Under the pieces are notes generated by a model, which was not told where the DNA came from, did no database searches, and saw only the letters and a program-made list of their open reading frames with translations. From assembly GCA_003599815.1 (NCBI GenBank), contig QZJZ01000005.1:33410-97409 (forward strand): a stretch of DNA of 64,000 nucleotides, in the 5' to 3' direction. Positions 12,701 to 63,981 of this stretch are shown here, piece after piece (position 1 is the first letter of the stretch; each line of letters opens with the position of its first letter). A program made the position numbers and the translations under genes. This DNA is from Candidatus Auribacter fodinae (GTDB lineage: Bacteria; Auribacterota; Auribacteria; Auribacterales; Auribacteraceae).

Positions 12701-15700
12701 AAACGGGTTCCAGCATTTCAGGGTCCACTTCGTCCGGTTTTGGAGCGAGCGCCGCCAGCCAGTTGAAATCCGATAACTGCGTTATGCTGTCCCTGTACTG
12801 CTCGAAAACTGATACGGATTGTTCCCTGCCTGCCTGCCGTTGCTGTACAAGGCGGTTAATCTTTTGGGTGACAAACAGGATGGTTTTTTTCCATCCGGTG
12901 ACAGCGGATATCCGCGCGATCGGCATCTGGTAATGGTAATGCAGGTAGAGTATGACTTGCTCGTTATAGGTCAGTTCTTTAGTGAACACGTCGCCCAGCA
13001 TTGCCTGCTGTACAGCGTCGAGAGGGAACCTGTACAATCCTCCTTCTATCGCGTTCAGCAGGAATGAGAAATCGGTTATGCCCGCTATTTCATCCCTGAG
13101 AGCCTGCGGGTCAAGTGAATGTTCCTCAGCTGGGATATCCACCTTAAATACCATAGGCGGTTGGTCTATACCTGCGTATATCTTGCTGTGCAGGAGTGCG
13201 GAAAAGGCGCTGGGATTATCATCATACTCCTGTGTGTACAGGCTGATCGCCTGTTGCAGGTGTTCTTTTGCGGCATCGATGCGTGCGGTTAAAGTCTGGA
13301 AACGTCCGGCGATCTGCCGTTCTATGCCGTTGAGCCATCCTCGAAGTGGCAGTTTCTGGTAATAGCGCATGTACAGTATGATTTGATCGCTGAAACTGAG
13401 CGCCCTGAACGCCGCTTCGTTTTCTTCCGGGCTGTGTGCCCCTTCAGCGAGCAGGTTGTCAATAAACGAGAAGTCGGATAGGACTGCGATCTTTTCGGAG
13501 TACTCGTTCAGTCCGGGAAAATAGCCTGATGACGTTTCGCCCATCATGAAATCCAGCATTTGTTCCCTGAGGTCGCTGAACGCTTTGTTAATTTTACTCA
13601 GGTGTAAGGGGTGGATATCCTGTATCTCTTTGTATGTCATGCGTTTTGCGAAAAAGATATATGCCAGTTTCTGCATTTCGGCCGGCAGTTGATTGAAGAA
13701 AGACTTCAGTTGATCGTTATCAGGTAAGTACGGCGCTCCTGCGGGGAGCAGGTTCAGCAAAAATGTGTAATCATTTATTCCTTCAAGGCTGATTGACTCA
13801 AAATTTGTGACGGGAGCGCTGATTACGGAAACAGGTGCGGTCATTTTGAATGTGAACGGGTAAGTGCCGTTATATGCCTGTCTTTTGACCGTATCGGCGT
13901 ACTCGAACGGGTCATATTCCTTATCGGGCTGAAACAATACCATCGCTTTGTTGAACGTGCTGATCGCGATGCGCATTCGTTGCCGTATGCTAACCTCCGC
14001 AAAGGGAAGTATATTCGACAATGCGATCGGTTTTAGTCCCTGATCGTAGGCGCTGAACAGGAGAAATTTATCTTCAAACATGAGAGAATCGAACACCTGT
14101 TTAAGCTGTTCGTCTGTCAGGCCTTGCGGTATTTTTTCGGTGTAGTCCGGCAAAATGAATGCGCGCAGGAACCCGAAATCCTCATTCGCGCGCAGGCGTT
14201 CGAGCAGATCGAAATAATGAAATTTAAACACAATATTTTTGAGATACAGCGCGGCGTCCTCTTCAGTTACGCTCATTGCGCCAGCAAGTTGAGCGGCGGT
14301 GATTTTGCCGTTTTTAAAGAGCCCGAACACGTCCTGTTCCTGTTTGTCGAGAAACGGCAGATAGCGCTGAAAACGATCATAGTTCAGGAACACCTCATTT
14401 GCTTTGGCGAGTGTGTTTATGAGATGTGTTATTTCACCAGTTTCAATATGGAACGCTTCTTTTACAGCATTGATTCCATCGCGGTGCGTATCTGCGTTGC
14501 GGTACACCCGGAGCATATCGCGCTGTTCCGTCGAAAGGAGATTGGAGAGAATCCCGTCGAAAAAGGCTTGCTGGTGAGTGAGGTTTATGTCTTCTGTATC
14601 CTCGCGTTCCATACGCAGTTCCATATCTTCCAGCTCATCATTGGCGAGCGGGTCGAGATCGCGCATGACGATGTTTTCTTTTGACTTGCCCGAATCGTCG
14701 TATGTTCCGTCAAGATCGGTAAGGCGTGAACCGGTATAATGCAGGTTTGATTTCAGAGTATCATCAGCGTAAAAGCGCGCTATGCCGATTCGAACTTCTT
14801 CTTCCACAAACGCAGGGAACGAGCCGAACTCAGAGAGTATGCGGTCGAGCTCCTCTTCAGTACGCTGTGTGTGAATGCTGGTGAGCAGGGCAAGATAGCC
14901 TTCCTGATCAATGTCTCCGGTAGTTATATAGCGTGCGCGCCATGCCCGTGAAAGGCTGTGGCGTGACCGTGCAGTTTCCAAAGCCAGAGCGTGGTACTGG
15001 TTGACCAGTTGTTCTATGGCTTCGGTATCGCCGTTGCCCGCGGCGATCCATGTTTGTTTTTCTTTTTGTGCCTGTGTTTGTTCCGGTGTAACTCTCTGCT
15101 GAGGAACACGCACCGGAGCGGTTGATACTGCCGGTGAAATGCGCACGGCAAGCTCCTTATCGTCAGCGCTTCGCAGGACATGAACGTTACGCACTTTTGA
15201 CAGTTCCATTTGCAGTACAGCTATGGAGCCGCGGTCATCTCCTATGTTTTCATACAGTATGCGAATTACTGATGATAAAGCGTGATGTATATCTTTCAGG
15301 TCAAGTGAGAAGTCGATTGATATATGGTTGAGCCGGGGGTTGAAATGGTCTGTCAGCAATCGTAAATCTGTTGGTAATCCTTTCGGACGCAAAGCAATCG
15401 GCGCATTGTTCTTGTGCGCATTGACCAGCAGATAGGTGGTATAGCGGGGTACAAGGCTGTTCGCGAGGCTGTACGTCCCGTGTATGTCACGGCTAGCAAG
15501 CCCGGTTTCAGCAAGGCTGTCAAGCAGGGCTGATATGTCCTGCGATGTCAGGTCGAGCTGGTACATATCGTATTCGAGTTCAGGGAGTAATCCTTCCACT
15601 GAATACGGATGGGTTGACAGCAGTCCAAGTATCGACATTTGTATCTGGTTGATTTTTCGGATGTACTGCGAGTAGCCTCGGTAATTGATAAATTCCTGAA

Positions 15701-49501: not shown

Positions 49502-50188
49502 ATGAAACAGCGCGGATTTATGTTAATCGCTATGTGCCTGCTGGGTATCTACTGTTCGACTGCCGATGCAGAGTCAGTCATTTTACAGCCTGAAGCGGCG
49601 GATGGTAAAAACAGTTATGTGCATTCCAATGTCGCCTCATACCCCATGGGACCCGGGCCAACGATCTATTCTTCAAGAGGTTATGCCGGTTATACCTCAT
49701 ATTCTTTGATCGAATTTGATTTATCCTCAATAGTAATCCCGACAACCGCCACTATAGAATCCGCGGTCATGGGAGTGTATGTCAGCGAAAAGTACGGAAG
49801 TGTATCCAGCGGAGTCAATGCGTACAGAATCACGTCAGCATGGACAGAATCAGGTGTTACATGGAACAATCAGCCTTCAGTGGATACCTCAGTCGCGATT
49901 CTGAATTCCGGCGGATTAGTATCGTCTGTCGGCTGGGTAGAATGGGATATAAAAAGTTTTGTGGAAGGATGGCTTGATACCCCGTCAACCAACTTCGGTG
50001 TTGAGTTAAGAAATATTGTGTCTGGATCGCAATTCGCGTATCATTCGTCAAATCAATCCAACTATCCGGCATACCGCCCGACACTGACAATAACGTATAC
50101 TGAGCAAGTCGTTGTACCTGAACCGCTGTCCATGATACTGCTGGGGTGCGGGCTGACTGCTTTGTATTGTAGAAGAAGCAAAAAATAA
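49502..50188 (+). CDS. PEP-CTERM sorting-domain protein with DNRLRE-like beta-sandwich domain
   Basis: Signal peptide. YSLIEFDLSS...YRITSAWTESGVTWNNQP matches the DNRLRE/CBM96-like pattern. C-terminal VPEPLSMILLGCGLTALYCRRSKK. Confidence 0.75.
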   Translation: MKQRGFMLIAMCLLGIYCSTADAESVILQPEAADGKNSYVHSNVASYPMGPGPTIYSSRGYAGYTSYSLIEFDLSSIVIPTTATIESAVMGVYVSEKYGSVSSGVNAYRITSAWTESGVTWNNQPSVDTSVAILNSGGLVSSVGWVEWDIKSFVEGWLDTPSTNFGVELRNIVSGSQFAYHSSNQSNYPAYRPTLTITYTEQVVVPEPLSMILLGCGLTALYCRRSKK

Positions 50189-53339: not shown

Positions 53340-53867
53340 CTAAAAAACAATAGCGCCTATAACGCCGCATGCAAGAATGACTATCACAGGATGCAATTTG
53401 CCCTCGAAAACAGCAAGAACCAGAAACGCGGCGGCCGCGATTGCCAGATCCAACCAGCCCTTAATCGCCGCCTTACCGTACGACCACACTGCGAAGAGGA
53501 TTAAGCCCAGGACGCCTATCTTGATGCCTTGCATGAAATCGCGCAAATTCCACTTGTTCTTGAATCGTTCTATGCATGGAACCAACAACGCGAGAATTAC
53601 GATGGACGGCACTATTACCGCTACTGTTGCGAGAATCGCACCGGGTATGCCGCTCAGGCGAAATCCGGTAAACGTAGCCGCGTTCACCGCGATAGGCCCG
53701 GGAGTCATCTGCGAAACGACTAATATCCGCGCCATTTCGCTGAATTCCAGCCAGTGCCTGCTGTCAACGAGCTCGTGCTGAATAAGGGGAATGGTCACCA
53801 TGCCGCCTCCATAAGCGCCAAGCCCGATCAGCATAAAACTGATAACCAGTTTAAGCAGTAGGGGCAT
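53340..53867 (-). CDS. chrA: Chromate transporter, short ChrA half
   Basis: IGLGAYGGGMVTIPLIQHELV...SQMTPGPIAVNAATF matches the CHR family motifs. Probable start at MPLLLK. Confidence 0.7.
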   Translation of the reverse strand: MPLLLKLVISFMLIGLGAYGGGMVTIPLIQHELVDSRHWLEFSEMARILVVSQMTPGPIAVNAATFTGFRLSGIPGAILATVAVIVPSIVILALLVPCIERFKNKWNLRDFMQGIKIGVLGLILFAVWSYGKAAIKGWLDLAIAAAAFLVLAVFEGKLHPVIVILACGVIGAIVF

Positions 53868-54459
53868 TGCCGCCAGCTCCTTCCGGTTTCTTTTTCGGTA
53901 ACAACCAGTAACCGAGCACACCTGCCGTGATTATCCCAAAGATAGGGTGTATTCCAAATACGCAGGCAGGTATCATTCCTGCCGCGCATACGGCACACTG
54001 TTTCCAGTTCCGCAACAGTGTCCTGCCGAAAATAAAGCCCGTAAAAGCCAGCTGGCTGACGATGGCGATTGCACAGCCCCGGAAAAAAGCGGTCACTTTC
54101 GGATTGCTGATAAACGGCAGAAACACCCCGGCTACAATCAGGATAACGAAAAAAGAGGGGAGAATTGTACCGAGCACCGCCATGACTGCCCCTATGTGAC
54201 TGCGCATGCGCCTGCCCAGAAGATATGCGATGTTTACGGCAATAGCCCCGGGCACGACGGTAGCCAGCGACATCAGAGACATAAAATCGGCATCCTTTAC
54301 CCATCGGCGTTTGATGGCCAGCTCATGCCGCATAACCAGTGACATAGCCATCCCTCCGCCCAGAGTGAACAGTCCGATTCGAAAAAACGTCCAGAAGATG
54401 CTGATGAGCGAAACTGGCATCGAGTCGTTTTCTTCATTCTGGCGGATTGAATGGCTCAT
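53851..54459 (-). CDS. chrA: Chromate transporter, short ChrA half
   Basis: FRIGLFTLGGGMAMSLVMRHEL...LATVVPGAIAVNIAY. Start uncertain among Met1, Met38 and Met51; Met38 was chosen. Confidence 0.65.
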   Translation of the reverse strand: MSHSIRQNEENDSMPVSLISIFWTFFRIGLFTLGGGMAMSLVMRHELAIKRRWVKDADFMSLMSLATVVPGAIAVNIAYLLGRRMRSHIGAVMAVLGTILPSFFVILIVAGVFLPFISNPKVTAFFRGCAIAIVSQLAFTGFIFGRTLLRNWKQCAVCAAGMIPACVFGIHPIFGIITAGVLGYWLLPKKKPEGAGGNAPTA

Positions 54460-54839
54460 GTTGTGTATGTATCTCCATCGAATTGGTGTCGGATTGTTTC
54501 GGATACTATAGTATGAAGCACTCTGCCCGTCAAGGCATAACCGTTTTCGCAAGGGCGATGGAATCGTCATGCATGGGGCGGCGTGAAATAGTAATATCGC
54601 ACAATATCGAAATACTTTTTTTAATATGCAGGTATAGTCAGGCTGAAGACAGTAATGTTAATGTCATTGGAATAAATTGTTGTATTTATATTAATTCTGT
54701 ATTAAAATCTTTGAATGTGTAATAAATATTTAATTATCGGCATTATAAATATAATTGTACCGTTTTTTATAACTTCTAAATTATTATAAATGTAACTATT
54801 GATGTAAAGCCAAAACTTTATGCCGGAAGGAGATACAGC

Positions 54840-55569
54840 AATGCAAAAGAGGTTGTTACGTATGGTTCCCGTGATGTGTATGATTTTGTTCGTGTCCGGA
54901 GTGAGTATTGCTAACGCGGGTGTACTCCCTGACCGGGCGACACTGGAAAGTATTCTTGGAGCTAACGCCGTAACCGAAGATTTCGAGACATTGGCGGTAC
55001 CTTCCAACACTGCTTATGGCATCGCTAATGTCGATACCCTTGATTCGTCAACGATTCTCACAATCAATACCATGCTTTTCGGACCGGGCCTGGTTATCCC
55101 CGGTGTGTCGTTTACCGAGCTGGACAACCTGAATTGGAACGGTGAAAATATCTGGGGCCAGACATCAAGAGCAATTTTAGGGTTTAATTATGACGGGATA
55201 CCCGGACACAGCATAGTAATCGATTTTCATAACCCGACGCCTGCCTGCGGGCTTGACCTGTCTATTCTTTCTGTTACCCCCTTTCATCCTGATGTTTTCA
55301 ATGTGGCAGTCTATGGCGCGGATGATTCGTCGCTATTGTACACGTCAGGGGATATAAACATTGACTTTTTCACGCGGATTTTCTGGGGATACACCGATGA
55401 TGCAGGTATCGGGAAAATAGCGGTATCGTCGACCACGCAGGATTGGTCTGCGATTGTGGATAATGTCACGTTCGACGGAAGCGCTGTTCCTGAGCCGGTC
55501 AGCAGTGCACTCTTCGTGTTTGGCGCAGGCTTTTTAGTGTCGTATTATCGTAAGAAGAGAAGCAAATAG
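54840..55569 (+). CDS. PEP-CTERM sorting-domain protein
   Basis: RBS GGAAGGAGA before ATG 54840 (MQKRLL...). Signal peptide. C-terminal VPEPVSSALFVFGAGFLVSYYRKKRSK. Confidence 0.7.
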
Positions 55570-55760: not shown

Positions 55761-56475
55761 TTATTTCAACCCAACGCTTTTTTTAACCAATACGGCAACC
55801 GCACTGCCAAGCAGGAACACCGATAGGGGTTCGGGCACAGCATTCATTTCGTCATCAGTATACATTTCGATTTCATTTATTACGTAGTAATCAGGTATAT
55901 CATGCGATGGGTTGTAGGACGGTTGGTAATCAATTGCGAAGACATAATCATTGATATAAATATCAACATAGTCTGTAAAATGCGGATTAGCGTCAATTTC
56001 AATAGCGGCTTTTTCCACAAAGGTTGAACCATCATCGGAAATAAAAAGTTTGCTTTCAGACCACCGATCTTTATAAATTCCACTATTTATATCGACAACA
56101 TTGTATGTCCGAATTTTAGTGATATAAACCGAATGAGGAAATATAACCCGCAAGGGAGCGATATTTGTTCCGGGCTGAGAACCGTCATTGTTTCCTGCAG
56201 GAAGCCAATAATTGTCATAGGTACCGGAAGCAAGCTGATTATCAATTATATGCTGCATGAAATAACGCGTATCTCCGCTATAAGGAGGTTTTGTAGATAT
56301 CCAATATACATCGCCTGCGATGCCTGATGCTGTAGTGATCATTGAACTGTCATTGTAACTGCCGCCAGAAACAAGCAGAAAATTTATTTTTGTCTCATCT
56401 GCAATTGAGGATGCACCGCATAACAAAAATCCGCATAGTGATATGAAAAATAATGTAAGCCTCAGTTCACGCATC
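55761..56475 (-). CDS. PEP-CTERM-like sorting-domain protein with lysine-rich tail
   Basis: RBS AAGGAGA before ATG 56475 (MRELRL...). Signal peptide. C-terminal VPEPLSVFLLGSAVAVLVKKSVGLK. Confidence 0.65.
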
Positions 56476-56658
56476 GCTATCTCCTTGTCTAAATTTAGAT
56501 TTTTTCGCATCATATATAGAGATATACCACATAAATTGAGGTTTTACCAACCGAGCCAAGATTTTATTCTAAAAAAAGTAATTCGAGCAATATTTTGATT
56601 TTGAGGTAGTAAACTATATCCAATAGCAGGATACACGCAGACTTAGCGTTTTACACTT

Positions 56659-57354
56659 TTATTGCCCTTGCTGGATGATCCATTCGAGTATGATGTGCGT
56701 CCATATGAAATAGCCGCCTATTACGATGAACAGTATGCCCGTAATCTTTCGGGTATACGCTTCTACCATCCTGACTTTATTGAACCAGTGCGAAATTGAT
56801 GTCATTCCCAGGGCGATGCCCAGAGCGAATAGCATAACAGGCAATCCCGTTCCGATACCATACAAGAAGGGAAAAACCATACCGAATTTATTATTCAGTG
56901 CAAGAGGTATCAGACTGCCAAAAAACAATGCGGCTGAAACCGGGCAGAATGAAAGAGCGAATAGTATCCCTAAAAGCCCTGATCCGAACAAACCCGATTC
57001 AGCTATTGAATGTTGTTTGTGATGCGAAAGCGTGAAACCGGACAGATTGATTTTAATGACGTTGCTCAGAACCAGCCCGGCAATCACAAGCACTGGTCCA
57101 AGAAGTTTGTTCATATAGGTTTGAAGAAACATCGCCACTACCGGAATTTTAATCAACGATGTGACAATCAAAGTGCCTATGAGCGCATACGTGATCATTC
57201 TTCCGACGGTATATGCAATACCGGACAACAGGACAGCCCTCGGATGAATTATTTTTTTTGACAGAAAAGTTATCGCCGCTATATTTGTCGCTAAAGGGCA
57301 CGGGCTTATGGATGTGAGGATACCGAGCCATATTGCGGATAAAAGAGCTAACAT
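56659..57354 (-). CDS. DsbD/CcdA-family transmembrane thiol-disulfide electron transporter-like protein
   Basis: Six TM segments with TM-embedded cysteines (ISPCPL; LSFCPVSAALFFG). Confidence 0.45.
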   Translation of the reverse strand: MLALLSAIWLGILTSISPCPLATNIAAITFLSKKIIHPRAVLLSGIAYTVGRMITYALIGTLIVTSLIKIPVVAMFLQTYMNKLLGPVLVIAGLVLSNVIKINLSGFTLSHHKQHSIAESGLFGSGLLGILFALSFCPVSAALFFGSLIPLALNNKFGMVFPFLYGIGTGLPVMLFALGIALGMTSISHWFNKVRMVEAYTRKITGILFIVIGGYFIWTHIILEWIIQQGQ

Positions 57355-57370
57355 TATGTATCTCCCACGG

Positions 57371-57790
57371 TTATTGGAGTTCTTTTAAAAACGACTCAGT
57401 TTCCGTTTTCACATAATCCGTAAATTTACCTTTGTTGCCCAAGTACTGCCATACTTTCTCCAGATTTTTGCTTTTTATTTCCTTGCCGTCTTTTACAAGG
57501 GATAACACGACTGCTTTTGTATATAGCTGGTAGTCTTTGATATAATGTTCATTGCCGTTCTCTTCAACGTTTATAACCTTATATTGCAGGTTTCCAGAGT
57601 TAATTGCGTCAGCAAACGTACCATTCATTGTTTCTCCGGTATACTCTTCGATTTTATGGCAGGACGCGCATCGAAAAGTAGTATGGAAATAATACGCATC
57701 AACACGGTTGCCCTGATCGGCAAATGTGTTACAGTTCATAAAAAATAAAAGTAAAGGGACAAAAACAATTTGTCTAATCATATTAAACAC
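57371..57790 (-). CDS. Secreted thioredoxin-like CxxC protein, possibly ArsF-family (ars-operon associated)
   Basis: Signal peptide and a single CASC motif. The small-protein family call is from memory only. Confidence 0.4.
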   Translation of the reverse strand: MFNMIRQIVFVPLLLFFMNCNTFADQGNRVDAYYFHTTFRCASCHKIEEYTGETMNGTFADAINSGNLQYKVINVEENGNEHYIKDYQLYTKAVVLSLVKDGKEIKSKNLEKVWQYLGNKGKFTDYVKTETESFLKELQ

Positions 57791-58145
57791 CTATTTCCTT
57801 AATCAATTGTTCAATGTCGATATCATTCAAAATTACTTCGCCTTTTTGAAATCCATAATCTTTGAGATTAATATACTCAACATGCAATTCAATCGACAGA
57901 TGGTCCATTGTTTTTTTTGCGCATGCTACAGGACATCCGTCTATAGCAATAATTCTGTCAGCGCATTTTGCTGATTCAATCATGCCGGATATATGACCGC
58001 CAAATCCTGCAAGGCAAAAAGGTTTTGCTTTGCCTGTACGTGCAATTTGCCGCGCAAGTTTATCTGCAAGTTCACCAACGTCTGCTCCTCCAGAGCACGC
58101 CACAACAAGTGACCCAATTCCACCACATGAGCATTTTTCACTCAT
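57783..58145 (-). CDS. DGC-domain putative zinc-binding protein
   Basis: AIDGCPVACA (DGC motif) together with N-terminal CSCGG and VACSGG cysteines. Confidence 0.6.
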   Translation of the reverse strand: MSEKCSCGGIGSLVVACSGGADVGELADKLARQIARTGKAKPFCLAGFGGHISGMIESAKCADRIIAIDGCPVACAKKTMDHLSIELHVEYINLKDYGFQKGEVILNDIDIEQLIKEIGV

Positions 58146-58156
58146 ATAAAAACTCC

Positions 58157-58387
58157 TTAATTTAAGAAAGCCTGTATCTGTTCAGGTGACAATACTTTCC
58201 CCGCTGATTTCACAACCCCGTCTATGACAAGCGCGGGTGTCATCATTACCCCGTATTCAGTTATTTTCATAATATCCTCAACCTTAACGACTTCAGCTTG
58301 TATGCCTGATGTTGCCACCGCTTCCTTGGCGCTCTCATACAATTTTTTGCACTTCGGACAGCCTGTCCCCAGTATTTCTATTTTCAT
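58157..58387 (-). CDS. Small thioredoxin-family protein (redox-active disulfide protein 2 / MTH895-ArsE-like)
   Basis: MKIEILGTGCPKCKKL. RBS AGGAGG before ATG 58387. 76 aa. Confidence 0.7.
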   Translation of the reverse strand: MKIEILGTGCPKCKKLYESAKEAVATSGIQAEVVKVEDIMKITEYGVMMTPALVIDGVVKSAGKVLSPEQIQAFLN

Positions 58388-58412
58388 AACACATTCCTCC
58401 TGTTTTTCTAAA

Positions 58413-59888
58413 TTACTGAACGAACGTTCCAAAAATTATTCCACTGATCGTTGCCATAGCGATTACCAGCGATACAAACACAACCGTTTTCTGAGTGCCC
58501 ATAACACTGCGGATTACCAGCATATTCGGAAGGCTGAGCGCAGGCCCTGCAAGAAGCAATGCCAGCGCAGGCCCCTTGCCCATTCCCGCGCCGAGAAGGC
58601 CCTGCAAAATAGGTACTTCTGTAAGAGTCGCAAAGTACATGAACGCTCCGGCAACCGACGCGAACAGGTTAGCCCACAGGGAATTGCCGCCAACAGCTTT
58701 CGCTACCCATTCGGACGGAATGAGCCCTTCATGACCCGGCCTGCCCAGCAATGCTCCGGCAATGACAACACCGAAAAACAAAAGCGGTAAAATTTGTTTG
58801 GCGAACGTCCATGTTGAGCTGAACCACTCTTCAGATTCACCTTTTGTTGTGCTTGTTGCCCACGAAAGTGCAATTACTCCGGCAGTGAACGGTATCATTA
58901 TCATCATGCCTTCCATCGGTAAAGCAATAGCAAGAATACCTGCCGGAACCGCTCCCGCCAGAATTTTCCAGATCGGTATGGCGAACCATATTATCAATAT
59001 CATCGCCAGCGCAACGCTAAACACAGCTGTTATTATCCATTTATTACTCCAGATGGTTGTCCAGAGCCCCGGAACGGGCTGTTTGCTCGCAATATCACCG
59101 GATGGTATCTCTAGTTGAGTTCCCGCCTGATCGCCATCTGTCAGCTTGACAGTATAGAATCCTGTATCTCCGGTTCCGTGTTCCGGCGACGTCACCACAG
59201 CCGCCCTAAGAGTATTCCCCTCGGTTGTTTCAAAATAAAAATCGTTTGGAGCTCCCCAGTTAGCGAATACCAGCACTCCGATCATCACAGCGAAGAACAC
59301 GGCGTTCTGCCAGAGCGGGCGGGCAACTTCAGGTTCAGGCATATGCATCTGTCCGTTCGCTTTTTCCAGTTCTTCCTTTCGATATATAAGATGCATAATC
59401 AGTCCGATGATGACGCTGAATCCAACAGCTCCAACGGCACGGGCAATACCCAGCTCAATACCGAGTATTCTGGCGGTCAGAATGATCGCGAGGATGTTGA
59501 TTGCCGGGCCGGAATATAAAAACGCAGTGGCAGGGCCAAGCCCGGCTCCTCTGCGGTATATACCTGAGAACAAAGGCAGTATCGTACAGGAACAGACGGC
59601 AAGAACGGTACCCGAAACCGCCGCTACTCCATAAGCCAGTATTTTATTTGCCTTTGCACCGAGGTATTTCATTACCGCCGCATGACTTACAAATACCGAT
59701 ATTGCCCCTGCGATAAAAAACGCGGGTACAAGGCATAACAGGACATGTTCCTGTGCGTACCACTTAACAAGGTACAAAGATTCCATTACCGCGTTGTCAA
59801 AACGAGCCCATCCTAATGGAAGATAAAAACATGCCAGAAAAACGATCCCTATTGTCGCCAGTTTTTTCCATTCTTCTTTCCACTCCAC
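58413..59888 (-). CDS. ArsP-family (DUF318) permease, long form with ~100-aa inserted soluble loop
   Basis: VLAVCSCTILPLF matches the conserved ArsP TM CxC motif. 491 aa versus ~350 typical. A hydrophilic insert sits around ETTEGNTLRAAVVTSPEHGTGDTGFYTVKLTDGDQAGTQL. Confidence 0.6.
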   Translation of the reverse strand: MEWKEEWKKLATIGIVFLACFYLPLGWARFDNAVMESLYLVKWYAQEHVLLCLVPAFFIAGAISVFVSHAAVMKYLGAKANKILAYGVAAVSGTVLAVCSCTILPLFSGIYRRGAGLGPATAFLYSGPAINILAIILTARILGIELGIARAVGAVGFSVIIGLIMHLIYRKEELEKANGQMHMPEPEVARPLWQNAVFFAVMIGVLVFANWGAPNDFYFETTEGNTLRAAVVTSPEHGTGDTGFYTVKLTDGDQAGTQLEIPSGDIASKQPVPGLWTTIWSNKWIITAVFSVALAMILIIWFAIPIWKILAGAVPAGILAIALPMEGMMIMIPFTAGVIALSWATSTTKGESEEWFSSTWTFAKQILPLLFFGVVIAGALLGRPGHEGLIPSEWVAKAVGGNSLWANLFASVAGAFMYFATLTEVPILQGLLGAGMGKGPALALLLAGPALSLPNMLVIRSVMGTQKTVVFVSLVIAMATISGIIFGTFVQ

Positions 59889-59993
59889 GTCTTTGCTCCT
59901 TGTTGGTGTTTCGATGTTTCCGGTACGACAGTGATTAATCGAACTGTTCGTATTTAATTAGCTGTTTTGCTATTTGGATTTTGCAAAAAAATT

Positions 59994-60332
59994 TTAGCCG
60001 CAGATCCTTGTCCTGTCTGCTTTGCCTGCCTCGGTTTTATCTTTCATGATAATAGCGTCATCATTAAGCCATTCCCGAATATTGCTCAATAGGATTCTTC
60101 CATATGCGGTATCTGCGGTTATTACATAATAATTAGTCCAGAAACCATCCTGTTCAGAGTTGATTAATCCCGCGGATTTGAGTTTGTTCAGGTGTCGAGA
60201 CACGCTTGGCTGAGTAATCCCGATCACCTGCGCAAGTTCACAAACACACATTTTTCTATCTTGCAGGAGTTTAACGATTCTCAACCTGTTTTTGTCCGCC
60301 AGCGCTTTCAGGCATTTTTCCAGTTCTTTCAT
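59994..60332 (-). CDS. arsR: ArsR/SmtB-family metalloregulator
   Basis: Winged HTH with CVCELAQVIGITQPSVSRHL, the ArsR-type C-V-C metalloid site. Confidence 0.85.
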   Translation of the reverse strand: MKELEKCLKALADKNRLRIVKLLQDRKMCVCELAQVIGITQPSVSRHLNKLKSAGLINSEQDGFWTNYYVITADTAYGRILLSNIREWLNDDAIIMKDKTEAGKADRTRICG

Positions 60333-60350
60333 TCATCCCTCTTTTTTAAA

Positions 60351-60364
60351 TAGCATTTTTGCTA
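60351..60364. promoter_or_regulatory. Candidate ArsR operator: TAGCA-tttt-TGCTA inverted repeat
   Basis: Perfect 5-bp arms about 19 nt upstream of the arsR ATG. Confidence 0.3.
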
Positions 60365-60522
60365 TATAGTCTCTTATATAAGACGTCAAAGTCAACAAAA
60401 AGTTTAAGAAATTGATGTTATGATGGATCAGTTGAGATTAGGGAAAATAGGTTTTATTTGTTAGATATGAGGCTGTTATCAAGTCGCGCTGAAAATTTTA
60501 TTCTGGAAACGAGGGAGAAGTT

Positions 60523-61023
60523 TCAGGTGGCAGTATTCTTATCTGTAAACCGATCGTCGGCGCAGTGATGAGTCACGCCCTGTGTTTTGTCGGCAAGCCA
60601 TCCGTCTTTTGTTGTTGCGTACCAGTCAAATGTACGGGCATAGGGTTTGATATCAAGTAACGGGGTTCCGTCGACAATATCTATGTTTTTTATATGGAGC
60701 ACATTTTTCTCAATTCGCATCAATTCTACCACAGAAATTCCGATGCCGTTCGGACGCTTCGGCGCTCTGGTCGCGAATACGCCATGCGAGGCGGCATCCA
60801 GAAACGGTTTGACAGTTAATGAATAGCCCTTTGATAAATGGAAATAATAAATCAGATATATATGCGAAAACCTGTCGAGTGAAGCGAGCCCTTCCATATA
60901 TTCAGGATATACTTCTACTGTTCCCAACGCACCTTGAGATAACGACGGCTGAATCGGTACGCCAACGGTTCCTCTGAACAGCGAATGAATGATTCCAATA
61001 GGTGAGAAAGCTATCGTATCCAT
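60523..61023 (-). CDS. TsaA/TrmO-family SAM-dependent methyltransferase (YaeB-like)
   Basis: PIGIIHSLF...GVPIQP...VEVYPEYMEGL...FSHIYLIYYFH matches TrmO N-terminal domain motifs. Confidence 0.7.
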   Translation of the reverse strand: MDTIAFSPIGIIHSLFRGTVGVPIQPSLSQGALGTVEVYPEYMEGLASLDRFSHIYLIYYFHLSKGYSLTVKPFLDAASHGVFATRAPKRPNGIGISVVELMRIEKNVLHIKNIDIVDGTPLLDIKPYARTFDWYATTKDGWLADKTQGVTHHCADDRFTDKNTAT

Positions 61024-61032
61024 AAAAATGCC

Positions 61033-61353
61033 TCAAAAGGTGACAACCCTGTCGCTTTCCTTTACGATATCATACATGTCTTTCATAGTAGAGATCGGGC
61101 ACATTTCGGAGTTTTCCTGTTCCCTGCTTTTGATGCATGTTCCGCAGGCATAAACTTTACCGCCGGCGTTCATAAACTTTTCAGCTTGCTCAACAGTATT
61201 GAATTTAGTGGTGCTGATTTTCTGGTATTCAACGCCTTTGCCCATAAAAAATACTTTAACCGCATCGCCTTGTCCAAGCGCGAAATTCCCGTAACGCAAC
61301 GCATTCCAGCATGTCTCCGCATCGTTGTTGGCAATGATAATCCCTAGTTTCAT
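61033..61353 (-). CDS. DsrE/DsrF-like family protein
   Basis: 106 aa: MKLGIIIANND...VKVFFMGKGV...VYACGTCIK. Confidence 0.55.
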   Translation of the reverse strand: MKLGIIIANNDAETCWNALRYGNFALGQGDAVKVFFMGKGVEYQKISTTKFNTVEQAEKFMNAGGKVYACGTCIKSREQENSEMCPISTMKDMYDIVKESDRVVTF

Positions 61354-61925
61354 TTGCTATCTCCTTTTTTTAAAACAATTCCGTAGTGATACGGTTTTAA
61401 ATCATGCAGTTCCTGTTTAACAAACCCTGCTTTTTTCGCCCATTGAATGCACATTTCCGGTGTCGGCCTTATATTCATGGAAGGGCCTCGCGGCGTCGCA
61501 GGGTCGTGATTCCAGTGAATTATGCCAAGCTTTCCGTTGTGCCTGAGTATCCGAAACGATTCATTGAGCATAATTTCAGGGCGTTCAATATGAAGAATAT
61601 TAAAGAGCATGACATAATCAACACTGTCATTCGATAACCCTGTGCCTTCCAACATGAAATCGCGGAGCAGTGTTTTTATATTATGCAGTCCGCGCACTGC
61701 GGCTTCATTGGCGGCCTGCTCAATCATTTCTTTTTCAATGTCTATGGCGTATACCGTTCCTCGAATTAGTTGTGCCGCAGGTATTGTAAACGTACCGTAC
61801 CCGCATCCGAATTCTACAACGTCCTGTACACGGTTGTCTATACCCATTGTTTTCAGTAACGCTTTCGGATCGAAGAAGGTTTCCCACATTTCTTTCTGCG
61901 GCATACCGCTTTCTCTGCCTTTCAC
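61350..61925 (-). CDS. Class-I SAM-dependent methyltransferase
   Basis: VVEFGCGYGTFT (motif I) and VMLFNILH. Overlaps the upstream gene by 4 nt. Confidence 0.7.
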   Translation of the reverse strand: MKGRESGMPQKEMWETFFDPKALLKTMGIDNRVQDVVEFGCGYGTFTIPAAQLIRGTVYAIDIEKEMIEQAANEAAVRGLHNIKTLLRDFMLEGTGLSNDSVDYVMLFNILHIERPEIMLNESFRILRHNGKLGIIHWNHDPATPRGPSMNIRPTPEMCIQWAKKAGFVKQELHDLKPYHYGIVLKKGDSK

Positions 61926-61973: not shown

Positions 61974-63197
61974 CTAAAACAGCTGAAGGACGTATCCAAG
62001 CAGAGATCCTCCGACGACGAGCCAGATGGCGCTGATCTTGCTGTATCGTATCGCGATAGCGGCGCTCAAACCCGCTATAAGAGCTGTTTTCCAATTTGTT
62101 ACCGCCGCAATCGACAGTTGCATCACGACTGCCGCCATAATGCCGACTGCGCTGATATTTACGGCATCCAGAAATTTTGAAGCCCATTGCGACTGCCGTA
62201 ATTTCGGGATAAGCGGATTAAGAAGGACAACGAACAAAAATGACGGCAAGAAAATGCCGACCGTAGCGGCAACAGCTCCCTGAATTCCGTTAATCTGATA
62301 CCCGATGAAGGTCGATGTGGATAAAACAGGCCCCGGCGTGAACTGCCCAACCGCGACGGCATCGAGCAATTGAGCCTGCGTCAGCCAGCCCAGCCGCTCA
62401 ACAAGCTCTCCTTCGAGATAGGCTATCAGCACATAACCGCTTCCAAAAAGGATGCATCCTATTTTCAGAAATGACAAAAATAACTGTGACACGGAAAAAG
62501 CCGCGCCAGCCGCAGAAGCTGTAATAACTGCCAGCGGTGAAAGCTGTGTTAAAGGAAGAGGGAAAAGGCTGAAGTTTCCTTTTTTGGAAGGTGATACTCT
62601 CAGATTCAGCCACACCATACCGATCAGCCCGCCACCGAGAATAGCGGTAAACTCATTTATTCCGAACAGGACGCAAGCCATTACAGCAGAGCCGATAATC
62701 CCCAGTTCCCATCCCTTCAGCGCTTTTTGGCCGAGTTTTAGGACTGCGCCGATGATAACCGCTATAACTGCGGGTCGGATACCGTAGAAAAACGGTTCAA
62801 CCGCAGGTAAATGTCCATATTTAACGTACGCGTACGCCAGAATGCCTGTTAATGTTACCGCCGGAAAAATAAAACAGGCTCCCGCAATAATCAGCCCCAA
62901 AAAACCTGCACGGTGAAACCCGCAATGGATTGCCATTTCCGTTGAATTGGGACCGGGGATCAGGTTTGTCGCGCCGACAAGGTCAAGGAAATGTTCCCGT
63001 GTCATCCATTGCCGTTTCGCGACAACTTCATCTTCCATCATGGCAATATGAGCGGCAGGACCGCCGAACGCGATAAATCCGAGCTTTAGAAAAAGAAGCG
63101 CGACCTCTTTTAATGTATCCAGTTTAAAATTTGACATATGCTGAACTCCTTTAGGATACGGCGAATTGGTGAATGCGTATATAGTACGACCAAACAA
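61974..63197 (-). CDS. chrA: Full-length chromate transporter ChrA (two CHR repeats)
   Basis: 407 aa. IAFGGPAAHIAMMEDEVV...LIPGPNSTEMA in the first half and a repeated motif in the second half. Confidence 0.8.
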   Translation of the reverse strand: MFGRTIYAFTNSPYPKGVQHMSNFKLDTLKEVALLFLKLGFIAFGGPAAHIAMMEDEVVAKRQWMTREHFLDLVGATNLIPGPNSTEMAIHCGFHRAGFLGLIIAGACFIFPAVTLTGILAYAYVKYGHLPAVEPFFYGIRPAVIAVIIGAVLKLGQKALKGWELGIIGSAVMACVLFGINEFTAILGGGLIGMVWLNLRVSPSKKGNFSLFPLPLTQLSPLAVITASAAGAAFSVSQLFLSFLKIGCILFGSGYVLIAYLEGELVERLGWLTQAQLLDAVAVGQFTPGPVLSTSTFIGYQINGIQGAVAATVGIFLPSFLFVVLLNPLIPKLRQSQWASKFLDAVNISAVGIMAAVVMQLSIAAVTNWKTALIAGLSAAIAIRYSKISAIWLVVGGSLLGYVLQLF

Positions 63198-63306: not shown

Positions 63307-63981
63307 TTATATCCTGCTTCGTTTTCTGAACAATAGCCCCGTTATGGCGGCAATAATCAGCCCGGCGGACGCGGGTTCAGGTACCGCAGGCGGCTCAACC
63401 GGCGGTTCAGGATCAGTAAAATGACCGGTAATGATAAAATTCTGTATTGTAACTATATCGTATCCTTCGTAATCATTAGCATTAACGCGCAGGTATACCA
63501 CATCGCCTTCATTGAGCGACACGTTTGTTTTGGTCAATGTTGATGTTGCCTGTTTCGCGTTGTATTTGCTGACAAGAACCGTAGAAAATTTCTGCAGATA
63601 AAAATACTGCCCGTTGCCGTACTGCGCGGCTTCAGGTGTTGTGTTTGAGTTCCATAAGGTAACTGAAAAGTCGTATACGCCGGTTTCCGGGGCGTAGAAC
63701 GCGATTGTGGGATCGCTTGCCAGCCCGGGGTGCAGGTAGCTGTAATCGATCATGAACCAACCGTCGTTTCCTGAGCCCGGATAGGTGGTTCCGGTAATCC
63801 ATCGGGTTGAGGATGCATACCAGTTCAGACTGCCGGAATATGTTGTATGGGTCGTGGATCCTTCCGGCGCTTTGAAATAGTCCCATACGCCTATATTACC
63901 ATGCTCGTCATTATCCGATTTCGCGCCGACACCCCATCCGGTGCGTTCAAGGTAGTCCCATGTGATATCATAGGCATGCAC
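63307..63981 (-). CDS. PEP-CTERM sorting-domain protein, N-terminus cut by the window edge; paralog of 8868-9569
   Basis: The reverse frame is open to the window end. C-terminal PEPPVEPPAVPEPASAGLIIAAITGLLFRKRSRI. Shares the WDY...TWG, FYLQK and Q.F..TG.F.DP blocks with the gene at 8868. Confidence 0.7.
   Translation of the reverse strand: MHAYDITWDYLERTGWGVGAKSDNDEHGNIGVWDYFKAPEGSTTHTTYSGSLNWYASSTRWITGTTYPGSGNDGWFMIDYSYLHPGLASDPTIAFYAPETGVYDFSVTLWNSNTTPEAAQYGNGQYFYLQKFSTVLVSKYNAKQATSTLTKTNVSLNEGDVVYLRVNANDYEGYDIVTIQNFIITGHFTDPEPPVEPPAVPEPASAGLIIAAITGLLFRKRSRI

What the first reader, a model, noticed from the sequence alone, without database searches (positions are those of the whole stretch)
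56659..61925. arsR-controlled island resembling an organoarsenical-detoxification (ArsE/F/G-like) set with a long-form ArsP permease
Downstream of arsR on the same strand lie, in order:
- an ArsP-type permease (conserved TM CxC motif) that is unusually long at 491 aa, with a ~100-aa hydrophilic insert;
- an MTH895-like thioredoxin (GCPKC);
- a DGC-domain zinc-binding protein;
- a secreted CxxC protein;
- a DsbD/CcdA-like membrane electron transporter.

Upstream of arsR lie TrmO-like, DsrE-like and SAM methyltransferase genes and a ChrA. The set looks like a redox relay plus efflux for aromatic or methylated arsenicals rather than a classic arsRBC system. No ArsB, Acr3, ArsC or ArsM is present.
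Basis: partly seen in the sequence, partly recalled or inferred. Interest (0 to 1): 0.5.

Follow-up and report, generated by a model that had tools for sequence, protein, structure and literature searches.

The report
Known-type accessory arsenic resistance operon
This is a six-gene operon in the subsurface bacterium Candidatus Auribacter fodinae that pairs an arsenic-type repressor and an ArsP-family export permease with a three-protein thiol-redox chain (ArsE, ArsF and ArsG look-alikes); it is an ordinary, widespread add-on to arsenic-resistance operons, and here it lacks the usual arsenate reductase and arsenite pump.

Summary
On the minus strand lie arsR, a 491-aa PF03773 (ArsP_1) permease with an invariant CSC motif, an MTH895/ArsE thioredoxin (CPKC), a DGC-domain protein, a secreted RCxxC protein and a DsbD-like membrane protein. 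The last five are 25 bp or less apart.

NCBIfam places the small proteins above curated cut-offs as ArsE-family, ArsF-family and ArsG (equivalog). A near-identical twin genome is already annotated this way.

The cassette is common. More than 595 relatives turned up among GTDB species genomes. ArsR and ArsE flank the permease in 71 of 81 loci, and Acr3, ArsC or ArsM lie nearby in 10 to 20 loci. The two closest relatives carry arsR-arsC-permease-arsE-(DGC)-arsF-arsG-ahpD-acr3, so the window holds a trimmed version.

The permease's hydrophilic stretch is 72 aa, not about 100. Only 55 aa of it (residues 217-271) are specific to the Planctomycetota/Auribacterota forms.

ArsF models as a signal-peptide thioredoxin fold. 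ArsG matches only CcdA in the PDB and keeps both membrane cysteines. A secreted-thioredoxin plus CcdA pair replaces ArsF-ArsG at the same position in 21 loci. This favours a transmembrane thiol relay plus efflux.

ChrA, the methyltransferase and DsrE are unrelated neighbours. Verdict: new member of a known kind, low interest.

The parts
60347..60368 (-). Candidate ArsR operator. Dyad ATAGC-N6-GCTAT overlapping the putative -10 element, 14-35 bp upstream of the arsR start codon.
   Evidence: Found as an inverted repeat. The surrounding promoter region is conserved in relatives L084 and L085. In L084 the dyad reads ATAAC-N6-GTTAT, a symmetric change on both arms. Function as an operator is inferred, not shown.
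59994..60332 (-). arsR: ArsR/SmtB repressor, 112 aa, with a two-cysteine CVC site (Cys29, Cys31) ahead of the recognition helix.
   Evidence: PF01022 at 68 bits; NF033788 at 86.5 bits against a cut-off of 55. CVC is present in 41 of 50 ArsR genes directly upstream of the permease in related loci. The position of R773 Cys37 is never Cys.
59951..59974 (-). Operator-like copy (19 of 24 bases identical to the arsR operator stretch) just after the arsR stop codon, in the 105-bp spacer before the permease.
   Evidence: Sequence read; the 19/24 count was made by eye from those sequences, not computed. Relatives L084 and L085 carry arsC at this position. The significance is inferred.
58413..59888 (-). 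PF03773 (ArsP_1, TC 2.A.119) permease, 491 aa. About 13 hydrophobic segments in a 1+4+4+4 layout, with an invariant C99-S-C101.
   Evidence: PF03773 at 246.6 bits. Only sub-threshold NCBIfam hits: SO_0444 at 99 bits against 300, SaoE at 94 against 325. More than 120 homologue clusters at 73-88% identity, all 485-494 aa. Invariant columns; hydropathy.
59076..59240 (-). Clade-specific 55-aa insertion in the permease (residues 217-271), predicted as five beta strands between two membrane helices.
   Evidence: Gapped in more than 50% of 77 family members. Strands predicted at 216-271 with pLDDT 70-80 in an otherwise poor model. No Pfam match. The side of the membrane is not resolved.
58157..58387 (-). 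arsE-like: 76-aa cytoplasmic MTH895-type thioredoxin with a CPKC motif.
   Evidence: TIGR00412 at 109 bits against 62; PF13192 at 99 bits. PDB 1ILO at E = 8e-15. Present beside the permease in 71 of 81 loci.
57783..58145 (-). DGC-domain cysteine-rich (putative zinc-binding) protein, 120 aa. Accessory; role unknown.
   Evidence: PF08859 at 90.5 bits. Present in 22 of 81 loci, typically just downstream of ArsE and upstream of the ArsF-ArsG or thioredoxin-CcdA pair. Conserved ACSG and DGC motifs.
57371..57790 (-). arsF-like: exported thioredoxin-fold protein with an invariant R40-C41-x-x-C44. The likely start is the ATG at 57781 (136 aa).
   Evidence: NF040494 at 108 bits against 60. AlphaFold2 model at pLDDT 86; the listed top 50 PDB matches are almost all thioredoxins. 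All 58 homologues have an N-terminal hydrophobic segment. Invariant columns.
56659..57354 (-). arsG-like: six-helix DsbD/CcdA-superfamily membrane protein, 231 aa, with invariant Cys19 (SPCP) and Cys137 (FCP).
   Evidence: NF040495 equivalog at 269.8 bits against 200; PF13386 at 52 bits. The family profile hits only CcdA (5VKV) in the PDB, full length, E = 0.0018. Invariant columns.
60523..61023 (-). TrmO/TsaA-like SAM-binding protein, 166 aa. A possible accessory, transcribed in the upstream unit. Membership is uncertain.
   Evidence: TIGR00104 at 132 bits against 93. Homologues at 44-48% identity sit directly between permease and thioredoxin in L004, L011, L046 and L051; in L070 it lies just upstream of the thioredoxin, about 1 kb downstream of the permease, with Acr3 listed between. 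Absent from the two closest relatives.

Best explanation
This is an ArsR-repressed accessory arsenic-defence operon, arsR-permease-arsE-DGC-arsF-arsG. It combines efflux with a transmembrane thiol-disulfide relay.

Shown by sequence and homology:
- The gene families.
- The tight operon spacing.
- The conserved cysteines.
- The linkage of this cassette to Acr3, ArsC and ArsM in relatives.

Inferred mechanism:
1. ArsR binds a dyad that overlaps its own promoter. It is released when a trivalent arsenical bridges its two cysteines (CVC). Two thiolates are enough for R-As(III) species as well as for As(III).
2. The PF03773 permease exports a trivalent (organo)arsenical from the cytoplasm, using its membrane-embedded CSC pair.
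3. The small cytoplasmic thioredoxin ArsE, the permease's near-constant partner, keeps that pair reduced.
4. ArsE also feeds electrons to ArsG, a CcdA-like protein, which passes them through its two membrane cysteines.
5. The acceptor is ArsF, an exported thioredoxin-fold CxxC protein. ArsF reduces a periplasmic target: oxidised or arsenical-damaged envelope thiols, or an arsenical substrate.
6. The DGC protein is a cysteine-rich cytoplasmic helper, either a metal(loid) binder or a redox partner.

In this genome the operon lacks the arsC, ahpD-like and acr3 genes that its nearest relatives carry.
For: - Family assignments are above curated cut-offs.
- Spacers are 25 bp or less from the permease to arsG, and 105 bp from arsR to the permease.
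- ArsR and ArsE flank the permease in 71 of 81 loci. Acr3 (TIGR00832, 384 bits) is present in 19-20 loci. ArsC-like is present in 14-15 (150.5 bits, below the 174.3 cut-off). ArsM (NF008823, 351 bits) is present in 9-10. Nearly all are on the same strand.
- The closest relatives (85-88% identical permease) have ArsR-ArsC-permease-ArsE-(DGC)-ArsF-ArsG-AhpD-Acr3.
- A Prevotella plasmid has ArsF-ArsG-thioredoxin-permease-ArsC-Acr3.
- ArsF has a thioredoxin fold, with CxxC at the N-terminal end of helix 42-58. A signal-like N-terminus is present in 58 of 58 homologues.
- ArsG resembles CcdA, with both cysteines invariant.
- At the same operon position, a secreted thioredoxin plus CcdA pair occurs in 21 loci and ArsF plus ArsG in 12. 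Overlap is limited to single extra components in four loci (L024, L026, L056, L070).
- The CVC site is conserved in the ArsR genes.
- The promoter dyad is conserved and changes symmetrically in a relative.
- ArsP-family efflux of organoarsenicals is described in PMC7176098 and PMC6205960.
Against: - Nothing here is experimental.
- As I recall it, and as the NCBIfam names reflect, the only experimental work on homologues is Chen, Zhang and Rosen 2019. That paper could not be read here. It assigns ArsE and ArsF a nitroreductase role and ArsG an efflux role, not an electron-transfer role.
- ArsG's second cysteine motif is FCP, not the TPC of CcdA, and is offset by two columns in the alignment.
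- The DsbD_2/LysE superfamily also contains true transporters.
- The window itself has no ArsC, Acr3 or ArsM, so the arsenic link rests on relatives.
- The nearest curated NCBIfam families for the permease are Cu/Zn (SO_0444) and SaoE exporters, far below threshold.
- Permease topology and the side of the insert are unresolved.
- The periplasmic target of ArsF is unknown.
Confidence: 0.55

Rival explanations
1. The system works as named after the Shewanella putrefaciens ArsEFG system. ArsE and ArsF together reduce the nitro group of trivalent roxarsone or nitarsone. ArsG is the efflux permease for the resulting amino-aromatic arsenicals. The PF03773 permease exports methylarsenite and trivalent roxarsone, like C. 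jejuni ArsP.
For: The NCBIfam models derived from that system are passed: ArsF subfamily at 108 bits against 60, and the ArsG equivalog at 269.8 against 200. The twin genome is annotated in this way. ArsP-family efflux of roxarsone and nitarsone is documented (PMC7176098, PMC6205960). The two-cysteine ArsR site fits organoarsenical sensing.
Against: ArsF is an exported thioredoxin fold with no flavin or nitroreductase fold. ArsE has no signal sequence, so the two are predicted to sit in different compartments. ArsG keeps both CcdA-type cysteines. ArsF-ArsG is replaced at the same operon position by a canonical thioredoxin-CcdA pair. The host is a deep-subsurface organism (my recollection of where this genome came from; not shown by any search), and the cassette is spread over many anaerobic phyla. 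Synthetic nitro-aromatic arsenicals are an unlikely selective agent there. The primary paper could not be read here.
Confidence: 0.25
2. The operon responds to, and exports, a different thiophilic metal (Cd, Zn, Cu, Pb or Hg) rather than arsenicals.
For: The best curated matches for the permease are the SO_0444 Cu/Zn efflux family and SaoE. The DGC protein is annotated as zinc-binding. CVC sites also occur in Cd/Pb/Zn sensors of the ArsR/SmtB family (my knowledge). Seven related loci carry a thioredoxin fused to a weak MerB-like domain. The window itself has no ArsC, Acr3 or ArsM.
Against: Those matches are three-fold below their cut-offs. The same cassette, at 85-88% permease identity, sits between arsC and acr3 in the nearest relatives. 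It sits beside Acr3, ArsC or ArsM in 10-20 of 81 loci. No metal P-type ATPase or CDF gene emerged among the recurrent neighbours.
Confidence: 0.08
3. The cassette is a general envelope thiol or sulfur-stress module, or a decaying remnant. Having lost arsC and acr3, it no longer serves arsenic defence. It is instead tied to the neighbouring DsrE, methyltransferase and ChrA genes.
For: ArsC, the AhpD-like gene and Acr3 of the relatives are missing here. A DsrE-like gene and ChrA lie upstream. ArsR shows weak similarity to the sulfite or persulfide sensors BigR and TsoR (40-50 bits).
Against: All six genes are intact, with conserved catalytic cysteines. DsrE, the methyltransferase and ChrA are found next to the cassette in no other locus. 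The BigR and TsoR scores are far below their cut-offs. The ArsR has the CVC site rather than the BigR-type cysteine pair.
Confidence: 0.07

Closest known systems
ArsEFG of Shewanella putrefaciens 200 (Chen, Zhang and Rosen 2019, Environ Sci Technol 53:6182; known to me only from citations, the NCBIfam names and memory)
   Same: A thioredoxin-like ArsE, a small ArsF and a DsbD-like ArsG encoded together under an ArsR. All three window proteins pass the NCBIfam models built for that system.
   Different: An added DGC protein and a 491-aa PF03773 permease, in a different phylum. The structural predictions made here (exported thioredoxin-fold ArsF, CcdA-like ArsG) point to a thiol relay rather than a nitroreductase plus pump. 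Direct sequence comparison with the Shewanella proteins could not be made.
ArsP of Campylobacter jejuni (TC 2.A.119.1.1), exporter of trivalent organoarsenicals
   Same: The same Pfam family, PF03773. The same conserved cysteine pair in a membrane helix; the role of the pair in transport is from my memory of Chen et al. 2015. ArsR-linked.
   Different: About 13 hydrophobic segments and 491 aa, against roughly 300 aa and 8 TMS for the short ArsP type (PMC2963123, PMC7176098). A separate subfamily with four extra central helices, an extra N-terminal helix and a 55-aa clade-specific insert. Substrate untested.
[quoted passage not shown]
   Same: The same logic and partly the same proteins. ArsE is redox-active disulfide protein 2. 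A DsbD-family membrane protein is paired with a secreted thioredoxin, next to an ArsP homologue. That paper also noted long ArsP forms with a central hydrophilic insertion.
   Different: Here the CcdA plus thioredoxin pair is replaced by the ArsG plus ArsF pair. ArsC is absent from the locus.
CcdA-ResA/CcsX and DsbD reducing pathways of the cell envelope
   Same: A membrane protein with two conserved cysteines (the only PDB relative is CcdA 5VKV), a cytoplasmic thioredoxin-like donor and an exported thioredoxin-fold CxxC acceptor.
   Different: Only a distant relative of CcdA: E = 0.0018 against the structure, and 51 bits between a CcdA representative and the ArsG model. The second motif is CP rather than PC. 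It is under ArsR control. The acceptor's target is unknown.
Bacteroidota plasmid clusters (Fulvitalea axinellae pFA1; Prevotella nigrescens F0103 plasmid)
   Same: ArsR/HTH, thioredoxin, ArsF, ArsG and a PF03773 permease in one unit. In Prevotella this is followed by ArsC and Acr3. ArsG is 35-40% identical and ArsE 41-57% identical.
   Different: The permeases are the short type (322 and 349 aa) and only 28-33% identical over 100-130 aa. No DGC gene. Different gene order.

Membership tests
ArsR/SmtB arsenic-responsive repressor (R773 ArsR type) | Winged-helix HTH_5 domain of the ArsR/SmtB family | tested here: met
   PF01022 at 68 bits; NF033788 at 86.5 bits against a cut-off of 55.
ArsR/SmtB arsenic-responsive repressor (R773 ArsR type) | CVC cysteine pair just before the DNA-recognition helix (R773 Cys32 and Cys34) | tested here: met
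   KMCVCELAQ at residues 27-35. Both cysteines are conserved in at least 95% of 19 close homologues, and CVC occurs in 41 of 50 permease-adjacent ArsR genes. The third R773 cysteine (Cys37) is Ala here and is never Cys in the set. It is dispensable for induction, by my recollection of Shi et al. 1996.
ArsR/SmtB arsenic-responsive repressor (R773 ArsR type) | Release from its operator by As(III) or organoarsenicals | not testable with these tools
   Only a conserved dyad overlapping the promoter was found.
ArsP organoarsenical exporter family (PF03773, TC 2.A.119) | PF03773 domain covering both 4-helix repeats | tested here: met
   246.6 bits; protein residues 40-487 match model positions 7-293.
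ArsP organoarsenical exporter family (PF03773, TC 2.A.119) | Conserved membrane cysteine pair (CxC) | tested here: met
   C99-S100-C101 invariant in 40 homologues. Also CSC in the Bacteroidota short permeases.
ArsP organoarsenical exporter family (PF03773, TC 2.A.119) | Close relationship to the characterised C. jejuni ArsP (about 300-aa, 8-TMS type) | not tested
The architecture differs (491 aa, about 13 segments). Only 28-33% identity to short permeases linked to ArsEFG.
ArsP organoarsenical exporter family (PF03773, TC 2.A.119) | Transport of MAs(III) or Rox(III) but not As(III) | not testable with these tools
   Needs resistance and vesicle transport assays.
SO_0444 Cu/Zn efflux and SaoE efflux subfamilies of PF03773 | Score above the NCBIfam equivalog cut-off | tested here: not met
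   99.4 bits against 300, and 94.1 against 325.
MTH895/ArsE thioredoxin-like proteins | TIGR00412 match above cut-off, about 76 aa, CxxC near the N-terminus | tested here: met
   109 bits against 62. CPKC at residues 10-13 of the 76-aa form. PDB 1ILO at E = 8e-15.
ArsF ('nitrophenyl compound nitroreductase subunit') | NF040494 match above cut-off | tested here: met
   108 bits against 60. R40, C41, C44 and E48 invariant in 58 sequences.
ArsF ('nitrophenyl compound nitroreductase subunit') | Nitroreductase-type fold or cofactor site | tested here: not met
   The model (pLDDT 86) is a thioredoxin fold. The listed top 50 PDB matches are almost all thioredoxins or thioredoxin-based designs; rank 48 is the peroxiredoxin Bcp1. 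Catalytic activity itself is not testable here.
ArsG ('aromatic aminobenzylarsenical efflux permease') | NF040495 equivalog match above cut-off | tested here: met
   269.8 bits against 200, with model positions 5-224 of 225 matched.
ArsG ('aromatic aminobenzylarsenical efflux permease') | Efflux of amino-aromatic trivalent arsenicals | not testable with these tools
   Needs transport assays.
CcdA/DsbD transmembrane thiol-disulfide transporters | Six-helix core with one conserved cysteine in each half | tested here: met
   PF13386 at 52 bits. The profile hits CcdA 5VKV over its full length at E = 0.0018. C19 and C137 are invariant in 16 sequences.
CcdA/DsbD transmembrane thiol-disulfide transporters | Canonical PC motifs at both cysteines | tested here: inconclusive
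   The first motif, SPCP, aligns with SPC of CcdA. The second is FCP, offset by two columns from TPC.
CcdA/DsbD transmembrane thiol-disulfide transporters | Cytoplasmic thioredoxin donor and exported thioredoxin-fold acceptor encoded alongside | tested here: met
   ArsE (no signal sequence) and ArsF (signal-like N-terminus, thioredoxin fold) are in the same operon. They are positionally interchangeable with thioredoxin plus CcdA in 21 loci. Electron transfer itself is untested.
Classic ars operon (arsRBC / arsR-arsC-acr3) | Arsenite pump (ArsB or Acr3) and arsenate reductase (ArsC) in the locus | tested here: not met
   No Acr3 or LMW-PTP ArsC in the 64-kb window by tblastn, with a working positive control. 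Both are present in the relatives' operons. ArsB and glutaredoxin-type ArsC were not searched for separately.

The most novel reading that the evidence does not exclude
ArsG and ArsF are not an efflux pump and a nitroreductase subunit. They are a diverged CcdA-type membrane electron conduit and its exported thioredoxin acceptor, fed by ArsE. Arsenic-resistance operons across many anaerobic phyla would then carry a dedicated, arsenic-induced pathway that sends reducing power to the cell envelope. In that reading, the 55-aa beta insert of the Planctomycetota/Auribacterota permeases could be a contact or hand-off site for that pathway.
Probability: 0.4. Interest if true: 0.5.

Novelty: new member of a known kind. 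Interest (0 to 1): 0.25.

Why it matters
As it stands, this is one more example of a widespread accessory module of arsenic-resistance operons. Automatic annotation already names it in a twin genome.

Its modest value has two parts.
- It extends the module to Candidatus Auribacterota.
- The comparative data gathered here bear on a question open since 2010: what the CcdA, thioredoxin and ArsEFG genes do in ars operons. Three observations give a direct, testable alternative to the published 'nitroreductase plus efflux permease' assignment. ArsF is predicted as an exported thioredoxin fold. ArsG keeps both CcdA-type cysteines. The ArsF-ArsG pair and a thioredoxin-CcdA pair replace each other at the same operon position.

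Tried and rejected
- The primary papers could not be read: ArsEFG (pmid 31059239), ArsP (PMC4681449, PMC4023722) and NfnB (PMC7606800) are not held. Statements about them rest on citations, NCBIfam names and my memory.
- Sequence searches of the PDB gave no credible relative for the permease, ArsF, ArsG or DGC as single sequences: none for the permease and ArsF, only weak chance-level hits for ArsG and DGC. Only a profile of ArsG reached CcdA.
- The AlphaFold2 model of the permease, built from a shallow 40-sequence alignment, was poor (pLDDT 54). It was not used for fold search. Only the local strand prediction for the insert is quoted.
- The side of the membrane on which the insert lies could not be settled. 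My hand count of Lys and Arg in alternate loops (not a tool result) came out roughly balanced: 10-14 on one side, 12 on the other.
- The insert has no Pfam match.
- The sigma-70 consensus scan found no more sites than shuffled sequence, 13 against a mean of 13.2, so promoter calls rest on conservation only.
- Base composition per gene shows no clear foreign island.
- The idea that the 191-aa methyltransferase is an ArsM was rejected: NF008823 at 30.5 bits against 263, and the protein is too short.
- The idea that ChrA, the methyltransferase and DsrE belong to the island was rejected. They are absent from all 80 other loci and from the two closest relatives.

Full report
**What is there**

All genes of the finding lie on the minus strand. 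In order of transcription they are as follows.

| Gene | Coordinates | Length |
|---|---|---|
| ChrA | 61974-63197 | 407 aa |
| Class I SAM methyltransferase | 61350-61925 | 191 aa |
| DsrE-like protein | 61033-61353 | 106 aa |
| TrmO/TsaA-like protein | 60523-61023 | 166 aa |
| ArsR | 59994-60332 | 112 aa |
| PF03773 permease | 58413-59888 | 491 aa |
| Small thioredoxin | 58157-58387 | 76 aa |
| DGC-domain protein | 57783-58145 | 120 aa |
| Secreted CxxC protein | 57371-57781/57790 | 136 or 139 aa |
| DsbD-like membrane protein | 56659-57354 | 231 aa |

Spacers from the permease to the last gene run from -8 to 25 bp. The arsR-to-permease spacer is 105 bp, and TrmO-to-arsR is 190 bp. There are therefore two transcription units: chrA-MTase-dsrE-trmO, and arsR-permease-arsE-DGC-arsF-arsG.

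The sequence is from Candidatus Auribacter fodinae (GCA_020061005.1; GenBank proteins RJP62084-62091). A 98-100% identical twin genome is already annotated by NCBI with 'ArsF family protein', 'ArsG family transporter', 'permease', 'thioredoxin family protein' and 'putative zinc-binding protein'.

Results from Pfam and NCBIfam:

- Permease: PF03773 ArsP_1 at 246.6 bits.
- Thioredoxin: TIGR00412 'MTH895/ArsE family' at 109 bits, cut-off 62.
- DGC protein: PF08859 at 90.5 bits.
- CxxC protein: NF040494 'nitrophenyl compound nitroreductase subunit ArsF family' at 108 bits, cut-off 60.
- Membrane protein: NF040495 'ArsG family transporter' (equivalog) at 269.8 bits, cut-off 200, plus PF13386 DsbD_2.
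- ArsR: NF033788 at 86.5 bits, cut-off 55.

The permease matches no curated NCBIfam transporter above threshold. SO_0444 Cu/Zn scores 99 bits against 300, and SaoE scores 94 against 325.

The methyltransferase is not an ArsM (30.5 bits against 263).

No Acr3, LMW-PTP ArsC or ArsM is detectable anywhere in the window, and the positive control worked.

**How common the cassette is, and what travels with it**

The permease has more than 120 homologue clusters at 73-88% identity. All are 485-494 aa, and those that carry an organism name are Planctomycetota, chiefly Phycisphaerae such as Sedimentisphaera and Anaerohalosphaeraceae.

A scan of one genome per species found 595 or more relatives. I kept the best 80 loci.

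| Neighbour | Loci, out of 81 (the 80 plus the window's own) |
|---|---|
| ArsR | 71 |
| ArsE-type thioredoxin | 71 |
| DGC | 22 |
| ArsF | 22 |
| ArsG | 15 |
| TrmO-like | 7 |
| ChrA, methyltransferase, DsrE | 1 (the window's own locus) |

These counts come from tblastn with the window's proteins.

De novo clustering of neighbours within 6 kb, followed by NCBIfam naming of the representatives, added more:

- Acr3 in 20 loci (384 bits).
- Thioredoxin-type ArsC-like in 14 loci (150.5 bits, below the 174.3 cut-off).
- ArsM in 9 loci (351 bits).
- A canonical CcdA/DsbD-like protein together with a secreted thioredoxin in 21 loci.

Nearly all of these lie on the permease strand.

The two nearest relatives have permeases 88% and 85% identical to the window's. 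They encode ArsR-ArsC(LMW-PTP)-permease-ArsE-(DGC)-ArsF-ArsG-AhpD/CMD-Acr3.

Two Bacteroidota plasmids carry ArsR/HTH, thioredoxin, ArsF, ArsG and a short PF03773 permease. In Prevotella this unit is followed by ArsC and Acr3.

The arsenic link of the cassette is therefore strong, but it comes from relatives. The window's copy is a trimmed version without arsC, the ahpD-like gene and acr3.

**The 'long-form' permease**

- Most family members in the 80 loci are 431-450 aa.
- The 488-491-aa form differs by one 55-aa insertion, residues 217-271.
- The whole hydrophilic stretch is 72 aa, residues 213-284, with 4 Lys/Arg and 9 Asp/Glu.
- The rest of the extra length, compared with 300-350-aa ArsP proteins, is an extra N-terminal helix and four central helices. 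This gives a 1+4+4+4 layout.
- The 4+N+4 pattern is described for the ArsP family in PMC7176098. A roughly 400-aa ArsP type with a central hydrophilic insertion was noted in PMC2963123.
- The insert has no Pfam match and is poorly conserved.
- It is predicted as five beta strands at pLDDT 70-80, in an otherwise unreliable model with mean pLDDT 54.
- I could not decide which side of the membrane it faces.
- C99-S-C101 is invariant.
- The window's permease is only 28-33% identical, over 100-130 aa, to the short permeases that accompany ArsEFG in Bacteroidota. It is a different subfamily, and its substrate cannot be read from homology.

**The redox proteins**

ArsE:
- It matches MTH895 (PDB 1ILO) at E = 8e-15.
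- It has no signal sequence.

ArsF:
- Sequence searches found no solved relative.
- A 58-sequence alignment gave a confident model, with pLDDT 86 overall and above 90 for the mature part.
- The listed top 50 PDB matches are almost all thioredoxins or thioredoxin-based designs. Rank 48 is the peroxiredoxin Bcp1, which also has a thioredoxin-type fold.
- The invariant C41-x-x-C44 sits at the start of helix 42-58, as in thioredoxins.
- All 58 homologues have a basic and then hydrophobic N-terminus.

ArsG:
- Its profile hits only Thermus CcdA (5VKV) in the PDB, over the full length, at E = 0.0018.
- Cys19 (SPCP) and Cys137 (FCP) are invariant.
- The second motif is CP rather than the PC of CcdA, and is offset by two columns in the alignment.

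Across loci, the position after permease-ArsE-(DGC) is filled in one of two ways:
- by ArsF-ArsG in 12 loci;
- by a secreted thioredoxin plus CcdA in 21 loci.

Overlap is limited to single extra components in four loci (L024, L026, L056, L070). This replacement argues that the two pairs do the same job.

**Regulation**

ArsR carries CVC (Cys29 and Cys31) at the position of the R773 ArsR arsenite site.
- 41 of 50 ArsR genes directly upstream of the permease have CVC.
- None has a cysteine at the R773 Cys37 position.

The region upstream of arsR is conserved in the window, L084 and L085.
- It contains a dyad, ATAGC-N6-GCTAT (60347-60368), overlapping the likely -10 element.
- In L084 the dyad reads ATAAC-N6-GTTAT, a change on both arms.
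- A 19/24 copy of this stretch, counted by eye, follows the arsR stop codon at about 59951-59974. Relatives carry arsC at that position.

Control by ArsR is thus plausible, but it is inferred.

**Most likely mechanism** (confidence about 0.55)

1. ArsR is released by a trivalent arsenical.
2. The permease exports a trivalent (organo)arsenical through its CSC pair.
3. ArsE keeps that pair reduced and also donates electrons to ArsG.
4. ArsG passes the electrons to periplasmic ArsF.
5. ArsF reduces a still unknown envelope target.
6. DGC is an accessory cysteine-rich helper.

*Shown:* the families, the conserved cysteines, the operon structure and the synteny. *Inferred:* every functional step.

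**Rivals**

- The published ArsEFG assignment, in which ArsE and ArsF are a nitroreductase and ArsG is an efflux permease: 0.25. I could not read that paper. The predicted compartments and folds fit it poorly, but the DsbD_2/LysE superfamily does contain transporters.
- A different thiophilic metal: 0.08.
- A general thiol or sulfur-stress module, or a remnant: 0.07.

**Comparison and novelty**

Every element was known before:
- ArsP-family permeases with central inserts or extra helices (PMC2963123, PMC7176098).
- ArsEFG (2019; NCBIfam models).

Automatic annotation already names these proteins.

The locus is a new member of a known kind. The clade-specific 55-aa insert and the recurrent TrmO-like and DGC accessories are minor variations. 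Interest is low, at 0.25. The most interesting by-product is the argument that ArsF and ArsG form a CcdA-type relay. That argument is general and not specific to this window.

Noticed in passing
window 60523-61023 (-); L004:9502, L011:4312, L046:9180, L051:9347, L070:9074: A short TrmO/TsaA-like SAM-binding protein (166 aa, TIGR00104 at 132 bits) recurs with the cassette. In L004, L011, L046 and L051 a 44-48% identical homologue sits directly between the permease and the ArsE thioredoxin. In L070 it lies just upstream of the thioredoxin, about 1 kb past the permease. It has no known role in arsenic biology, and it is absent from the two closest relatives.
   Followed up: partly
window 61974-63197 (-), 53851-54570 (-), 53340-53921 (-): Three chromate-transporter (PF02417) genes lie within 10 kb. 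One is a full-length ChrA just upstream of the methyltransferase. The other two are a pair of adjacent half-size ChrA genes.
   Followed up: no
window 49502-50188 (+), 54820-55569 (+), 55761-56513 (-), 63307-63981 (-): Four secreted proteins end in a PEP-CTERM-like tail (VPEP, a hydrophobic helix, then a basic end). They flank the island on both sides.
   Followed up: no
window 59951-59974 and 60347-60368 (-); L084 and L085 upstream of arsR: The arsR promoter and dyad region is conserved in three genomes, with a symmetric change of the dyad in L084. A 19/24 copy (counted by eye) of the operator-like stretch lies right after the arsR stop codon, at the place where relatives carry arsC. This suggests loss of arsC, or a second regulated promoter for the permease.
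   Followed up: partly
L009:6604-7923 and six other related loci (cluster C13): A membrane-anchored thioredoxin is fused to a cysteine-rich C-terminal region with weak similarity to organomercurial lyase MerB (30 bits against a cut-off of 200). It is encoded next to the permease cassette.
   Followed up: no
L084:12248-12529; L085:11929-12192: An AhpD/CMD-family protein with a CxxC motif (GCTPC) is encoded between arsG and acr3 in the closest relatives. It is a further thiol-redox component of the fuller operon and is missing in the window.
   Followed up: no
window 58413-59888 versus 57371-57790: The operon looks mosaic. The permease is 73-88% identical to Planctomycetota proteins. The best hits for ArsF beyond the first few (65-75% identical, unnamed or Auribacterota) are Omnitrophota at about 50-65%. 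Base composition per gene gives no clear signal of recent transfer.
   Followed up: partly
L084:11549-12245 and 12514-13694: In the 88%-identical relative, arsG (155 and 58 aa) and acr3 (127 and 249 aa) are each called as two pieces. The cause is either frameshift errors in a long-read assembly or real decay.
   Followed up: no
window 61033-61925 (-): A DsrE-like protein (weak YedF-like match, 25 bits) and a 191-aa class I methyltransferase overlap by 4 bp. They precede the TrmO-like gene by 9 bp, downstream of ChrA. This small unit was seen next to the cassette in no other locus, and its function is unknown.
   Followed up: partly
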